This document shows, in pieces, positions 4,779-42,150 of a stretch of 64,000 bases of DNA (the first letter of the stretch is position 1; each line of letters starts with the position of its first letter). The notes below the pieces were generated by a model that had not been told where the DNA came from, made no database searches, and saw nothing but the letters and a program-made list of their open reading frames with translations. Position numbers and translations under genes: made by a program. The DNA is from Candidatus Saccharimonadota bacterium (GTDB taxonomy: Bacteria; Patescibacteriota; Saccharimonadia; Saccharimonadales; Saccharimonadaceae): contig JAFRKN010000003.1 in NCBI GenBank assembly GCA_017431725.1, positions 25,912-89,911 of the forward strand, read 5' to 3'.

Positions 4779-4856
4779 TCTAAGTTCCTTTGGTTAAATT
4801 TAATACTTGGTTAGCTAATTGTTAAATAGCGTCACCAAATAAAATTATAAGAAATT

Positions 4857-4902
4857 TCCTCGGCGACATGATTAAGAGCAAAACTCCGTCGCTGTCTTTG
4901 GT
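4857..4902 (-). promoter_or_regulatory. L10 leader (autoregulatory RNA) candidate
   Basis: Minus strand CCAAAGACAGCGAC...TTAA...GTCGCCGAGG upstream of rplJ resembles the AGACAG...CGAGG L10-leader pattern. Confidence 0.75.
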
Positions 4903-4944
4903 AACTTTCTTAATTATAACACACAACTTAAATTTCGGCAATAT

Positions 4945-11507: not shown

Positions 11508-11558
11508 AACAATCATTATAACACGAAAAAACGCCACTCTGGCGCCTTTTAATTCGAC

Positions 11559-11700
11559 TGGCTGGGGATGAGGGATTCGATTCGAAGAACGAGTCCTGCT
11601 TTTTGTGCATGCTCGTTAGAGCATGGCTGGGGATGAGGGATTCGACCGGAGCGTCAGCGACGGACGAGTCCTGCTTTTTGATGTTTTTGTGAAACAAAAA
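11559..11700 (-). repeat. Two exact 22-nt copies of the tRNA-Gln 3' end separated by motif-bearing units
   Basis: TGGCTGGGGATGAGGGATTCGA occurs at 11559-11580, 11624-11645 and 11701-11722. Both intervening units contain ACGAGTCCTGCTTTTTG. Confidence 0.95.
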
Positions 11701-11775
11701 TGGCTGGGGATGAGGGATTCGAACCCCCGAATGTCGGGACCAGAACCCGATGCCTTACCACTTGGCGAATCCCCA
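11701..11775 (-). tRNA. tRNA-Gln(CTG)
   Basis: Cloverleaf TGGGGAT/ATCCCCA, anticodon arm TCGGG-TTCTGGT-CCCGA, GTTCGAATC T-loop, encoded CCA. Confidence 0.97.
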
Positions 11776-32727: not shown

Positions 32728-33497
32728 TTATCACTTCTCTCAATCAAATTTAATAAAAGTGACACGTTTTCAGGTATAACAATCTCTCCACGCTTAATTT
32801 TTTTTAGAGCTGATATCCCTTCTACGGTTTTTTCTGGTTGATAATCAGGATTATCTTTTAATTTATCGCCAAATTCAAAATTACGCGACGGATAGGCGCA
32901 AGTAATTTTTAAATCTCCCTTACCACAAACTAAATCTACTGTTTCTGGCTTCGCCCCATTAGCTTTTAAAATTAATTTCATCTCATTTTCGACATCACTC
33001 AAAAATTTTCGGTGCTCTTTTGTCCCCGTTTTTAGCCCCAACAAACCAGCCAATATTGCGTAAACATTTTTTAAAGCTCCGCACATCAAAACACCTTTTT
33101 CATCATCTGTCGTATCAAAAGTCAAATAATCAGTCCCAAACATCTTGAGAATTCTTTCGTCAGTCGCGGTTAATTTGGTCTTTTTATGCGCTTTTATATC
33201 GACTGCAAAACCCGGCCCAGACAGAATCATATAATCTTTAAAATCTTTAAAAGTATCAACAGACAAAATACCTTTTGTCGCAATAATTAGAGGCTTCTTT
33301 TTTGGCAAATGTGGTAAAAGATATGGTACAGATTTTGAAGGCACCGCCAAAAGAATCATTTGCGCAGTCGCCAAAACTTCTTGCAAAGGTTCATTCATGA
33401 TTTTTGAGTCATAATAATCCACGTCATACCCATTATCGGTTAAAATACTTCCTAGTGCTGTCCCAAATGCCCCCGCTCCTAAAATCGCTATTTTCAT
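32718..33497 (-). CDS. gpsA: NAD(P)H-dependent glycerol-3-phosphate dehydrogenase
   Basis: GAGAFGTAL, ATKG, LSGP, GALKNVYAI, GDLKITC, SRNFEFG, TVEG. Confidence 0.88.
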   Translation of the reverse strand: MKIAILGAGAFGTALGSILTDNGYDVDYYDSKIMNEPLQEVLATAQMILLAVPSKSVPYLLPHLPKKKPLIIATKGILSVDTFKDFKDYMILSGPGFAVDIKAHKKTKLTATDERILKMFGTDYLTFDTTDDEKGVLMCGALKNVYAILAGLLGLKTGTKEHRKFLSDVENEMKLILKANGAKPETVDLVCGKGDLKITCAYPSRNFEFGDKLKDNPDYQPEKTVEGISALKKIKRGEIVIPENVSLLLNLIERSDKWA

Positions 33498-33532
33498 TTT
33501 TGTTATCCGATTAAATAAAAAAATAATATTGA

Positions 33533-33676
33533 AAGTAGGACTCGCTCGAAATAGTAGCGACAACCGATGCCCTGCTTTTTAATACACTTTCGCAAGAAAG
33601 TGGTGCTGGAAGTAGGACTCGATTCGAATGAAGTGAGAACCGATGTCCTGCTTTTTAATGCACTTTCGCAAGAAAG
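33533..33676 (-). repeat. Exact 22-nt and partial 12-nt copies of the tRNA-Tyr 3' end separated by near-duplicate motif units
   Basis: TGGTGCTGGAAGTAGGACTCGA at 33601-33622 equals 33677-33698; AAGTAGGACTCG at 33533-33544. Both units contain AACCGATG(T/C)CCTGCTTTTTAAT(G/A)CACTTTCGCAAGAAAG. Confidence 0.95.
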
Positions 33677-33761
33677 TGGTGCTGGAAGTAGGACTCGAAC
33701 CTACGAAGCCCGAAGGCGAGAGATTTACAGTCTCTTGTCATTGCCACTAGACGATTCCAGC
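33677..33761 (-). tRNA. tRNA-Tyr(GTA)
   Basis: GCTGGAA/TTCCAGC acceptor, AGAGA-CTGTAAA-TCTCT anticodon arm, long variable arm, encoded CCA. Confidence 0.97.
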
Positions 33762-33827
33762 TCACTCATAATTATATGGGATTTCCACAAAAAAATCAAC
33801 TTTATTAAGCATCTTCTGATTTTTAAA

Positions 33828-34631
33828 CTAAATCCGTTTTCGGCCGACATGTTGTTTTATAATACGAGGCAAGGGCTTTTTTTCGACGGATTTATTTATT
33901 TTTGTAGGAGTTTGCTTTTTTGGCTCCACATCAGTTTTTGATTTATTTTTTTTGGATACATTCAAAATTGACTTTCTAGCATTAGACAGAGTCTTTTTTC
34001 TTTTTAGTTCATTGTCTCGCACAATTTGTTCTTCGATTCGTGCTGCCGTTGCCGTCACAGCTTCCTCGTCTCCGCTTTCTTCATAAATCGATAAAATCAG
34101 CCTTAGTGTTGCAATTTTTGGATCAAGCTCATAGGCGTTTTCCAAAGCTTTGATTGCTTTCTTGGTGTGACCCAACTTTTCTTCTGCTTTAGAAAGCGCA
34201 ATATAGCGAGAAGGAACATCACCTTCTAGCTCAATTGCCTGTTCAAACGCCATTGCAGCTTTTTCATAAGCTCCAGTCTCTAAATATATCAAACCGGCGT
34301 TATGAATTGAAGCCGAATTACTGTCAAGAGATTGAGCAATTTCAAAACATTCCACCGCTTCGTCGTATTTTTTGCCTTTGGCATACAAAATACCCAATCT
34401 ATTATAAGCTGCGGCATTTTTTTCATCAAATTTTAAAATCGTCAGCAAGGCCTTTTCTGCCTTAAAAGGTTTTCTTTCTTTCATTGAAGTTTGTGCAATC
34501 TGCCAAAGTTTTTTCATTTGGGCAGTGTATTTAGGAGATTTAATTTCCCTCTCTTTTTCTTTTTTGGATTCTAACGGGAAAAAGAAAGAAAGATAAATGA
34601 CAAAAAACAAAATAGCTAAAACAGCAATCAT
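33828..34631 (-). CDS. Membrane-anchored TPR-repeat protein
   Basis: N-terminal TM; AAAYNRLGILY, HNAGLIYLETGAYEKA TPR patterns. Confidence 0.85.
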   Translation of the reverse strand: MIAVLAILFFVIYLSFFFPLESKKEKEREIKSPKYTAQMKKLWQIAQTSMKERKPFKAEKALLTILKFDEKNAAAYNRLGILYAKGKKYDEAVECFEIAQSLDSNSASIHNAGLIYLETGAYEKAAMAFEQAIELEGDVPSRYIALSKAEEKLGHTKKAIKALENAYELDPKIATLRLILSIYEESGDEEAVTATAARIEEQIVRDNELKRKKTLSNARKSILNVSKKNKSKTDVEPKKQTPTKINKSVEKKPLPRIIKQHVGRKRI

Positions 34632-37298: not shown

Positions 37299-37375
37299 GG
37301 GGCGTTAGCTCAGCTGATTAGAGCGCTACTATGGCATAGTAGAGGTCATGAGTTTGAATCTCATACGCTCCACCA
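37299..37375 (+). tRNA. tRNA-Ala(GGC)
   Basis: GGGGCGT/ACGCTCC acceptor with G3:U70, CTACT-ATGGCAT-AGTAG anticodon arm, encoded CCA. The D-loop has GA instead of GG and the T-loop has TTTGA instead of TTCGA, consistent with a compensatory A19-U56 pair. Confidence 0.93.
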
Positions 37376-37441
37376 AAAATGAAAAGCCAAGAATTTATTC
37401 TTGGGTTTTTATTTTTTAGGAGTGGCCTGAGATTACTTCGT

Positions 37442-37460
37442 AATCTCATACGCTCCACCA
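37442..37460 (+). repeat. 19-nt duplicate of the tRNA-Ala(GGC) 3' end
   Basis: AATCTCATACGCTCCACCA at 37357-37375 and 37442-37460. Confidence 0.92.
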
Positions 37461-42110: not shown

Positions 42111-42116
42111 ACATAG

Positions 42117-42150
42117 GAAGCGAGAACGAAAGTCTTGCTTTTTTGATGCA
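42117..42150. repeat. Copy of the tRNA-associated motif unit, inverted relative to the tRNA
   Basis: GAAGCGAGAACGAAAGTCTTGCTTTTTTGATGCA aligns with GAAGTGAGAACCGATGTCCTGCTTTTTAATGCA at 33630-33662. Confidence 0.75.

What the first reader, a model, noticed from the sequence alone, without database searches (positions are those of the whole stretch)
33531..33761. tRNA-Tyr followed by a tandem array of 3'-end copies with the same motif as at tRNA-Gln
Transcript sense: tRNA-CCA, 54-nt unit, exact 22-nt copy (TCGAGTCCTACTTCCAGCACCA), 56-nt unit, decayed 12-nt copy. Both units start with the hairpin CTTTC-TTGC-GAAAG, then TG(C/T)ATT-AAAAAGCAGG(A/G)CATCGGTT, then diverge and end in TTCGA(A/G). The distal copy is the more degraded, suggesting polarised, tRNA-proximal addition as in CRISPR arrays.
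Basis: seen in the sequence. Interest (0 to 1): 0.8.

Follow-up and report, generated by a model that had tools for sequence, protein, structure and literature searches.

The report
tRNA-trailer hairpin repeat family
Behind tRNA-Tyr lies a short tandem repeat whose units each end in a copy of the tRNA's last 21-22 bases; it belongs to a hairpin-forming repeat family found behind many tRNA genes in one genus of Saccharibacteria, which grows by local duplication rather than CRISPR-like capture and whose function is still unknown.

Summary
tRNA-Tyr (33677-33761, minus strand) is followed by two 76-77-nt units. The first ends in an exact 22-nt copy of the tRNA 3' end; the second ends in a decayed copy. 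The shared motif at tRNA-Gln is not chance. Both arrays belong to one family: a covariance model of the unit hits 72 of 151 same-genus genomes (Ca. Nanosyncoccus-like Saccharibacteria) and none of 150 other genomes of the phylum. In every locus examined the unit sits directly 3' of a tRNA on the same strand, at 13 or more isoacceptors, in arrays of 1-4.

Each unit has a trailer hairpin, a TGCAY + A-run linker, and a long bulged hairpin whose 3' strand is the T-loop/T-stem part of the tRNA copy. The acceptor strand and CCA then stay unpaired. The hairpins covary strongly, including a helix unrelated to the tRNA.

Array mates are mostly identical, copy number differs between species, and edge copies decay. 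Arrays therefore grow by unit-to-unit duplication, not by CRISPR-like capture. Unit presence does not track extra integrases or reverse transcriptases.

The closest known cases are the E. coli tyrT 178-bp repeats and the partial-tRNA att repeats of genomic islands. The function, and the way units spread between tRNAs, remain unknown.

The parts
33771..33799 (-). promoter-like site (TTGATT-17-TATAAT) just upstream of tRNA-Tyr
   Evidence: Consensus scan, 10 of 12 matches. No terminator-like site lies between the tRNA and the downstream gpsA-like gene, so the units are probably inside this transcript (inferred).
33677..33761 (-). tRNA-Tyr(gta), CCA encoded
   Evidence: ARAGORN; Rfam tRNA model, 57.6 bits.
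33601..33676 (-). Unit 1. Trailer hairpin hp1 33663-33676; TGCATT 33657-33662; A-run AAAAAG 33651-33656; hp2 5' arm CAGGACATCG 33641-33650; loop 33622-33640; 21-nt core copy (tRNA positions 56-76) 33601-33621.
   Evidence: Sequence. Best hit of model R1, 92.7 bits. The minimum-energy fold gives hp1 and hp2, z -3.3.
33524..33600 (-). Unit 2. hp1 33587-33600; A-run 33575-33580; 5' arm CAGGGCATCG 33565-33574; loop 33545-33564; decayed core 33524-33544 (the first 12 nt, 33533-33544, still match).
   Evidence: Sequence. R1 hit of 74.4 bits. Core matches the tRNA at 16 of 21 positions.
   Evidence: ARAGORN; Rfam.
11624..11700 (-). Gln unit 1: hp1 of the TTTTTGTTTCACAAAAA type, long loop, exact core copy
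   Evidence: Sequence. R1 hit of 56.3 bits. The same hp1 type is found behind Arg(tcg), Trp and Gln(ttg) in other genomes.
11559..11623 (-). Gln unit 2: hp1 TGCTCTAACGAGCA, short loop TTCTTCGAAT, exact core copy
   Evidence: Sequence. R1 hit of 60.1 bits. Orthologous to the two identical units behind tRNA-Gln(ctg) in G125.
11525..11546 (-). intrinsic terminator that follows the Gln array
   Evidence: GC-rich hairpin followed by a T-run, read. The scan finds the same stem on the + strand at 11532-11544. The array therefore lies between the tRNA and its terminator.
37376..37460 (+). Related 'type C' element behind tRNA-Ala(ggc) (37299-37375): a terminator hairpin, then a minihelix-like hairpin whose 3' strand is the exact 19-nt tRNA 3' end (37442-37460).
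   Evidence: Exact 19-mer repeat, 0 expected by chance. Fold -36.2 kcal/mol, z -8.1.

Best explanation
The Tyr array is a locally duplicated member of a genus-specific family of tRNA-trailer repeat units.

Unit anatomy:
- a 5-7-bp trailer hairpin (hp1) directly after CCA;
- a TGCAY + A-run linker;
- a long bulged hairpin (hp2). Its 5' arm matches the cognate tRNA, and its 3' arm is the start of a copy of tRNA positions 56-76;
- the acceptor 3' strand and CCA, which stay unpaired.

Shown:
- The family exists and is always attached to a tRNA in the loci examined.
- Both hairpins are maintained through compensatory change.
- Arrays differ in copy number between species, array mates are mostly identical, and edge copies decay.

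Inferred:
- Arrays expand and contract by unequal exchange or slippage between the 21-22-nt cores. This also keeps the cores identical to the tRNA.
- The units lie between the tRNA and its terminator or the next tRNA. They should therefore be transcribed with the tRNA and released as RNAs of about 75 nt ending in CCA, cut by the enzymes that make tRNA ends.

Speculative: the selected role is that of a processed trailer RNA, or a folded single-stranded DNA site, that presents a masked mimic of the tRNA's 3' end.

It is not an acquisition record. How units reached many different tRNAs is unexplained.
For: Family and linkage to tRNAs:
- Model R1 hits 72 of 151 genus genomes, up to 13 per genome, and 0 of 150 other genomes of the phylum.
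- All 14 exact pattern hits in the species-representative genome collection are in Saccharibacteria-type records, one of them labelled Bulleidia.
- In 38 of the 40 loci examined the units directly follow a tRNA on the same strand: Tyr, Val, Ser x3, Lys x2, Arg, Gln, Trp, Asn and Gly. The other two (L224, L227) showed no tRNA in the stretch fetched; L224 runs to the end of its contig.

Structure:
- On 57 distinct units, 92.7% of cells are paired, against 25-51% in slid controls; 0 of 500 shuffles reach this.
- The hp2 outer helix tracks tRNA identity (CG 27 / UA 23 at one pair).
- An inner helix that is independent of the tRNA, and was not in the model's structure, covaries (AU 24 / UA 22; UA 36 / CG 9; CG 31 / UA 9 / GC 6).
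- hp1 covaries within the orthologous Tyr locus of 15 species.

Local duplication:
- Tandem Repeats Finder gives period 76.
- Array mates have median identity 1.0.
- G044 carries four identical units. The orthologous Arg(tcg) locus has 4, 2 plus a remnant, or 2 units in different species.
- The G162 units share core variants that the tRNA lacks.

Transcription geometry:
- The next tRNA starts 0-21 nt after the unit's CCA in several species.
- Terminators follow the arrays.
- There is a promoter-like site before tRNA-Tyr and no terminator-like site after it.
Against: - There are no expression data, so transcription and processing are inferred from geometry alone.
- G-U versus A-C counts in hp2 (16 against 11) give no strand call. 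The selected structure could be RNA, single-stranded DNA, or a double-stranded inverted repeat.
- Nearly identical non-core modules sit behind different tRNAs. Loops are more alike within a genome than between genomes. Both imply a mobility step that duplication alone does not provide.
- Cargo genes lie between units in at least four genomes, which hints at a DNA-level role.
- Copy numbers of identical units in short-read MAGs may be mis-assembled.
Confidence: 0.6

Rival explanations
1. The units are scars or miniature derivatives of integrative elements that target tRNA genes. A tyrosine integrase crosses over in the T-loop, the element restores the tRNA, and the displaced 3' fragment stays behind. 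The hairpin and A-run would then be remnants of the attachment-site arms.
For: - A partial tRNA copy running from the T-loop to CCA is the classic mark of such integration (established knowledge; tycheposon preprint).
- Cargo DNA without housekeeping function lies between the tRNA or a unit and a further unit in G002 (6.4 kb, defence-like genes), G072, G047 and G061.
- The family is spread over many tRNAs.
Against: - No integrase was seen in the cargo: the G002 and G072 ORFs were scanned against Pfam; the G047 and G061 inserts were only listed as ORFs.
- The window's genome has only two Xer-like recombinases, both in housekeeping contexts.
- Recombinase counts do not differ between unit-positive genomes (mean 1.65) and unit-negative genomes (mean 1.70) (my tally).
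- Cargo is bounded by a 6-nt NCACCA repeat at the CCA end, not by the T-loop junction.
- Viral contigs hold no attachment site of this kind.
- Neutral scars would not keep compensatory changes in a helix unrelated to the tRNA.
Confidence: 0.2
2. The units are folded recombination sites comparable to integron attC sites. They would turn tRNA 3' ends into platforms where gene cassettes are inserted and lost, using a host Xer-type recombinase.
For: - The structure is conserved while the sequence is not. The terminal loop is variable (10-25 nt) and the stem has a conserved bulged A.
- There is no strand bias between G-U and A-C.
- Cargo segments are flanked by near-identical units.
- A XerD-like recombinase is nearly universal in the genus.
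Against: - Most arrays hold no cargo at all.
- No integron integrase or attI-like site was found. The Xer proteins score far below the integron-integrase cut-offs.
- Cargo junctions lie at CCA, outside hp2.
Confidence: 0.1
3. CRISPR-like polarised acquisition: each unit records a separate event added next to the tRNA, with the tRNA end acting as the repeat.
For: - The distal-most core is the one that decays.
- The proximal Gln unit belongs to a different sub-lineage from the distal one.
Against: - The spacers are one homologous family.
- Array mates are identical.
- Units copy each other rather than the tRNA (G162).
- No Cas1 was found.
- The pattern scans of viral contigs found no unit-like sequence, apart from a host-type tRNA-Tyr on one contig.
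Confidence: 0.02
4. The units act on the opposite strand as intrinsic terminators that stop antisense transcription from running into the tRNA gene. Read antisense, hp2 is followed directly by a U-run.
For: - The A-run before hp2 is the most conserved non-core feature.
- The terminator scan picks up hp2 of Gln unit 2 on the + strand (11579-11595).
Against: - The genes downstream of the arrays run in the same direction as the tRNA, so there is nothing convergent to stop.
- A terminator has no need for a tRNA copy or for tandem copies.
- There is no excess of pairs that would be G-U on the antisense strand.
Confidence: 0.05
5. A single local slippage duplication with a chance resemblance to the Gln locus.
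For: The two Tyr units are indeed sister copies from a local duplication.
Against: - The motif is significant in the window.
- The unit model finds the same architecture behind 13 or more tRNA types in 72 genomes.
Confidence: 0.01

Closest known systems
E. coli tyrT-tyrV distal repeats (178 bp x 3.14; RttR/RtT small RNA and tpr)
   Same: A tRNA-Tyr gene is followed, within its own transcript, by tandem units that each end in an exact copy of the tRNA 3' end. I verified this in K-12: spacing is 178 bp and the 19-mer occurs six times at the locus, with rttR and tpr annotated there. The 19-nt copy starts in the T-loop, as in the type C elements here.
   Different: The E. coli case is a single locus with 178-bp units. 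It has no family spread over many tRNAs and no reported hairpin arm matched to the tRNA. Rfam finds nothing in the units here, so there is no sequence or model relationship.
Displaced partial-tRNA (att) repeats of genomic islands, prophages and tycheposons
   Same: A direct repeat of the tRNA 3' part, from the T-loop to CCA, lies downstream of an intact tRNA. Successive copies are pushed distally, and cargo sometimes lies between copies.
   Different: Here the interval is usually only 44-57 nt of conserved, structured sequence. There is no integrase, no link to recombinase content, the array mates are identical, and the hairpins covary.
CRISPR arrays
   Same: Both alternate a constant segment with an intervening segment, and both have a degenerate terminal repeat.
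   Different: The intervening segments are homologous to each other rather than captured. No cas genes are present. Units duplicate as whole blocks.
Integron attC sites
   Same: Both are imperfect inverted repeats defined by structure, with a variable loop and a conserved bulged base. Some flank cargo.
   Different: There is no integron integrase, attI site or cassette promoter. Most units flank nothing. The 3' arm is dictated by the neighbouring tRNA.
REP/BIME and MITE-type small structured repeats
   Same: Both are short, hairpin-forming, non-coding units present in many copies, often in tandem, in intergenic DNA.
   Different: These units are strictly tied to tRNA 3' ends, and part of each unit is re-matched to its host tRNA. 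No RAYT/Y1 or TnpB-type gene was found.
Functional tRNA trailers such as the 3' external transcribed spacer of leuZ in E. coli (from my own knowledge; not checked here)
   Same: Both are segments of a tRNA precursor outside the mature tRNA that could have a role of their own.
   Different: The leuZ spacer has no repeat structure and no tRNA-end copy, and its role as a sponge for small RNAs rests on experiments. Nothing comparable has been tested here.

Membership tests
CRISPR array | Near-identical repeats separated by unique spacers of foreign origin | tested here: not met
   The intervening segments align with each other across loci and genomes, and array mates are identical.
CRISPR array | Cas1/Cas2 acquisition genes in the genome | tested here: not met
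   No Cas1 (PF01867) match in the 98.5%-complete genome.
tRNA-targeting integrative element (att remnant) | An intact tRNA plus a displaced direct copy of its 3' part | tested here: met
   Exact 21-22-nt copies lie behind Tyr and Gln, and 19 nt behind Ala(ggc).
tRNA-targeting integrative element (att remnant) | An integrase gene in the interval or at its edge | tested here: not met
   The intervals in the window are 54-56 nt. The cargo intervals in G002 and G072 have no Phage_integrase match; the G047 and G061 inserts were only listed as ORFs. The genome has two Xer-like genes elsewhere.
tRNA-targeting integrative element (att remnant) | Presence tracks recombinase content, or an attachment site is found on a phage or plasmid | tested here: not met
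   Mean PF00589 hits are 1.65 against 1.70. The pattern scans of viral contigs gave no unit-like sequence. Unbinned plasmids could not be searched.
tyrT-type trailer repeats / RtT RNA | Tandem units inside the tRNA operon, each ending in the tRNA 3' end | tested here: met
   for the window; for E. coli.
tyrT-type trailer repeats / RtT RNA | Match to a curated RNA family model | tested here: not met
   Rfam gives only the tRNA in 33450-33800, even at E up to 10.
Integron attC | Integron integrase with an adjacent attI site and cassette array | tested here: not met
   The Xer-like proteins score 72 and 126 bits against a cut-off of 265 for the integron-integrase model.
Integron attC | A folded imperfect palindrome with extrahelical base(s) and a variable loop | tested here: inconclusive
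   hp2 has these traits, but whether it folds as single-stranded DNA cannot be told from sequence.
Retro-element product (tRNA-primed or snap-back cDNA) | Dependence on a reverse transcriptase | tested here: not met
   An RT is present in 47 of 72 unit-positive and 49 of 79 unit-negative genomes. The unit-rich genomes G125 and G162 have none.
Degenerate tRNA pseudogene | The non-core part of the unit is homologous to the 5' two-thirds of the cognate tRNA | tested here: not met
   Local alignment against shuffles gives p from 0.03 to 0.86 in 8 loci, with no consistent region.

The most novel reading that the evidence does not exclude
The units are a new class of tRNA-anchored module defined by its structure. 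It would be either a processed RNA of about 75 nt that displays a masked mimic of its tRNA's 3' end, or an attC-like folded DNA site. It would retarget to new tRNAs by re-matching its hairpin arm and tail to the host tRNA, work without an integrase or reverse transcriptase of its own, and make tRNA 3' ends the cassette platforms of these minimal genomes.
Probability: 0.25. Interest if true: 0.8.

Novelty: new variant of a known kind. Interest (0 to 1): 0.6.

Why it matters
Saccharibacteria have tiny genomes in which non-coding DNA is scarce. Yet about half the sampled species of this genus keep structured repeats behind their tRNA genes, with hairpins preserved by compensatory change.

If the units are made as RNA, they would be abundant tRNA-sized molecules with a tRNA-identical 3' tail. 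That is a candidate decoy, sponge or processing signal in organisms whose RNA biology is almost unstudied. If they act as DNA sites, they would explain how gene cassettes enter genomes that lack integrases.

The family also has practical consequences. It breaks short-read assemblies, it spawns spurious ORF calls, and it could be misread as a CRISPR-like array or as prophage att scars.

Tried and rejected
1. Strict motif search in 40 relatives found only one further true unit. The motif was too narrow, so I replaced it with a covariance model.
2. RNAalifold on the MAFFT alignment gave no useful consensus. I tested a named structure instead.
3. Viral contig scans. The specific unit pattern gave 0 hits. 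A loose pattern returned only coding-region noise. The tRNA-Tyr core pattern found only phage tRNA-Thr genes and one host-type tRNA-Tyr.
4. The metagenome scan gave 2 hits with the same architecture and nothing new.
5. Strain-level variation. Other assemblies that carry the identical gpsA-like protein have the identical array, so copy-number change within the species could not be seen.
6. Enzyme candidates in the genome. There is no serine recombinase, Cas1, TnpB-type or Y1 transposase. Of the two RT genes, the one with the flanking 114-nt repeat pair looks like a diversity-generating retroelement. Neither RT nor recombinase content tracks the units.
7. The strand call from G-U against A-C pairs was inconclusive.
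8. The idea that the unit is a decayed tRNA copy is not supported.
9. Literature searches found no description of such repeats in Saccharibacteria. The search for tyrT papers was uninformative, so I checked the E. coli case on sequence instead.

Full report
**1. Check of the observation**

tRNA-Tyr(gta) lies at 33677-33761 on the minus strand. In transcript sense it is followed by unit 1 (33676-33601) and unit 2 (33600-33524).
- Unit 1 has a 54-nt spacer and then an exact 22-nt copy of the tRNA end.
- Unit 2 has a 56-nt spacer and then a copy of which only the first 12 nt survive.
- Tandem Repeats Finder gives period 76, 2.2 copies and 90% matches.
- An independent assembly of the same strain carries the identical array.

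The motif AAAAAGCAGGRC occurs exactly four times in the window, all in the Tyr and Gln units. With one mismatch allowed there are 5 matches against 1.2 expected, and 0 of 100 shuffles reach 5. tRNA-Gln(ctg) at 11701-11775 has two units, 11624-11700 and 11559-11623, followed by a terminator.

**2. What the unit is**

The genome is 752 kb, about 39% G+C and 98.5% complete. Record titles of close matches name Candidatus Saccharibacteria and Candidatus Nanosyncoccus from animal guts.

Units with the same motif also follow tRNA-Lys(ttt), tRNA-Asn and tRNA-Ser(cga) in this genome. Other tRNAs carry 3'-end copies of different design:
- Arg(tcg) and Ala(ggc) have a terminator followed by a hairpin ('type C').
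- Gln(ttg) has an element of about 180 nt ('type B').

I aligned 18 units from six tRNA types. The motif turned out to be the 5' arm of a hairpin whose 3' arm is the first part of the tRNA copy. AGGAC(A)TCG pairs with CGAGTCCT, which is tRNA positions 56-63. The unit therefore reads:
- hp1, a 5-7-bp hairpin directly after CCA;
- TGCAY plus an A-run;
- hp2, made of an outer helix, a bulged A, the helix UCG/CGA, and in most units two further inner helices;
- the unpaired acceptor 3' strand and CCA.

Single-sequence folds recover this layout.

**3. Distribution**

A covariance model of the unit (R1) finds hits in 72 of 151 genomes of the same genus, up to 13 per genome. It finds none in 150 genomes from 130 other genera of the phylum.

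I examined 40 loci. In 38 the units sit directly 3' of a tRNA on the same strand; the other two (L224, L227) showed no tRNA in the stretch fetched, and L224 runs to the end of its contig. The tRNAs are Tyr, Val(cac), Ser(gct, cga, tga), Lys(ttt, ctt), Arg(tcg), Gln(ctg), Trp, Asn and Gly(tcc), and Gln(ttg).

Arrays hold one to four units. G044 has four identical 78-nt units behind tRNA-Arg(tcg).

Several arrays lie between two tRNA genes with 0-21 nt to spare, and others are followed by a terminator. The units therefore lie inside tRNA transcription units. That they are made as RNA is inferred from this geometry and has not been shown.

**4. Selection on structure**

I counted pairs on 57 distinct units.
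- 92.7% of cells are paired, against 25-51% when partners are slid by 1-3 columns. No shuffle out of 500 reaches the observed value.
- The outer helix of hp2 follows the identity of the tRNA: GGAC/GTCC, GGAT/ATCC, GGGAT/ATCCC, GGGAC/GTCCC and GGGC/GCCC. One pair is CG in 27 units and UA in 23.
- A three-pair inner helix owes nothing to the tRNA and was not part of the model's structure. It covaries just as well (AU 24 / UA 22; UA 36 / CG 9; CG 31 / UA 9 / GC 6) and is 97% paired.
- hp1 shows compensatory changes within the orthologous Tyr locus of 15 species, with 80 of 85 cells paired.

The alignment was fitted to the model, which favours the modelled pairs. The inner helix and the slid controls are the fairer tests.

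G-U pairs (16) and A-C mismatches (11) are about equally common in hp2. The data therefore do not say whether the selected fold is RNA, single-stranded DNA or a duplex inverted repeat.

**5. How arrays grow**

- Array mates have median identity 1.0 in hp1, linker, loop and core.
- The orthologous Arg(tcg) locus carries four units in one species, two plus a truncated third in another, and two in a third.
- In G162 at least four units behind tRNA-Gln(ttg) share three core differences from the tRNA itself. Units are therefore copied from units.
- The two Tyr units in the window share features that the single unit of the nearest relative G004 lacks. They are sisters from a local duplication.
- In 20 arrays the cores are equal in 11, the distal copy is more decayed in 7, and the proximal copy in 2. 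Every strongly decayed core is the last one.

All of this fits unequal exchange or slippage between the 21-22-nt cores. Such exchange would also keep the cores identical to the tRNA, even where the acceptor stem has changed between species. The edge copy escapes homogenisation and decays.

It does not fit CRISPR-like capture. The only point in favour of proximal addition is the Gln array. Its proximal unit belongs to the sub-family with hp1 TTTTTGTTTCACAAAAA, which is also found behind Arg, Trp and Gln(ttg). Its distal unit is orthologous to the units of G125.

**6. The unexplained step: spread between tRNAs**

Nearly identical non-core modules lie behind different tRNAs. Loops are more alike within a genome across tRNAs (0.66) than between genomes across tRNAs (0.56). 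Some transfer between loci therefore occurs, together with re-matching of the arm and the core.

I found no enzyme for it.
- The genome has two Xer-like recombinases in housekeeping contexts.
- It has no serine recombinase, Cas1, TnpB-type or Y1 transposase.
- It has two reverse transcriptase genes. One is flanked by a 114-nt repeat pair and looks like a diversity-generating retroelement.
- Across the genus, unit-positive and unit-negative genomes have the same mean number of tyrosine recombinase hits (1.65 against 1.70; my tally).
- They also have the same frequency of reverse transcriptase (47 of 72 against 49 of 79).
- The non-core part of the unit is not a decayed copy of the cognate tRNA.

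**7. Cargo**

In G002 a 6.4-kb segment with defence-like genes lies between tRNA-Tyr and a unit. It encodes a DUF4379/REase protein and a HATPase_c_3 protein and has no integrase. In G072, G047 and G061, segments of 1.2-1.8 kb lie between two near-identical units or copies.

The cargo starts right after a CCA and ends with a 6-nt NCACCA that precedes the next hp1. tRNA ends that carry units are therefore also insertion points. The junctions lie at CCA, however, not at the T-loop border of the core. The mechanism is open.

**8. Comparison with known systems**

The nearest described case is the E. coli tyrT-tyrV locus. I confirmed on the K-12 sequence that 178-bp units, each ending in the 19-nt tRNA-Tyr 3' end, follow tyrV. 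The region is annotated with the small RNA RttR and with tpr. That is a single locus with no matched hairpin, and Rfam finds nothing in the present units.

The second comparison is the displaced partial tRNA left by integrases, as at genomic islands and tycheposons. The partial copy is shared, but the integrase, the link to recombinase content and a phage or plasmid attachment site are all missing here.

Resemblances to integron attC sites (structure-defined site, bulged base, variable loop) and to REP or MITE repeats are functional analogies only.

**9. Verdict**

It is a genus-wide family of structured repeats attached to tRNA 3' ends. I rate it a new variant of a known kind.
- About 0.6 that it is a co-transcribed, structurally constrained trailer repeat that grows by local duplication.
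- About 0.2 that it is a product of integrases.
- About 0.1 that it is an attC-like site.
- Very little that it is a CRISPR-like record.

Function and the route between tRNAs remain open.

Noticed in passing
window 37376-37460 (+), behind tRNA-Ala(ggc) 37299-37375: A strong terminator hairpin is followed by a minihelix-like hairpin whose 3' strand is the exact 19-nt tRNA 3' end including ACCA. Its 5' strand also pairs with the acceptor strand, with A-U where tRNA-Ala has G3:U70. The fold has z -8.1. The same design follows tRNA-Arg(tcg) on contig C7 of this genome.
   Followed up: partly
G000:C3:32227-32408 (own genome, outside the window); also L027, L030 and L041: An element of about 180 nt sits behind tRNA-Gln(ttg), and behind tRNA-Tyr of G071, G047 and G007. 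It consists of a terminator, an inverted copy of the tRNA 3' part, a conserved GAGAACCGTAGGTTCG block, internal hairpins, and then a direct 3'-end copy.
   Followed up: no
window 33567-33941 (+): A 124-aa ORF runs antisense across both units and tRNA-Tyr. It is called as a gene without any Pfam hit in a public assembly. It is almost certainly a spurious call caused by the repeat.
   Followed up: partly
G000:C8:5863-9474 (L250; about 16 kb before the window start): A reverse transcriptase of 396 aa is flanked by a pair of 114-nt direct repeats at 92% identity. This looks like a diversity-generating retroelement. A second, weaker RT gene lies on contig C7.
   Followed up: partly
L045:89-6470 (G002, between tRNA-Tyr and a unit): A 6.4-kb island carries a 796-aa protein with nine DUF4379 zinc-finger repeats and a weak (below cut-off) REase_MTES_1575 match, and a 515-aa HATPase_c_3 protein. 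The cargo looks defence-related and has no integrase.
   Followed up: partly
L246 (contig labelled Bulleidia sp.): One exact unit-pattern hit lies in a 14-kb contig binned as a Firmicute. It is probably a mis-binned Saccharibacteria contig.
   Followed up: no
window 42111-42145 (+), behind tRNA-Ala(cgc): The one-mismatch motif hit at 42132-42143 (minus strand) is the reverse strand of an ordinary hairpin-plus-T-run terminator, not a unit.
   Followed up: yes
window 4831-4919 (-): Ribosomal protein L10 leader, Rfam RF00557, 53.6 bits against a gathering score of 44.
   Followed up: no
L183/L049 (G069:C21:195-270): A Tyr-type unit with a decayed Tyr core lies between tRNA-Thr(tgt) and tRNA-Thr(ggt), with no tRNA-Tyr next to it. 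A unit can therefore outlive, or be separated from, its tRNA.
   Followed up: no
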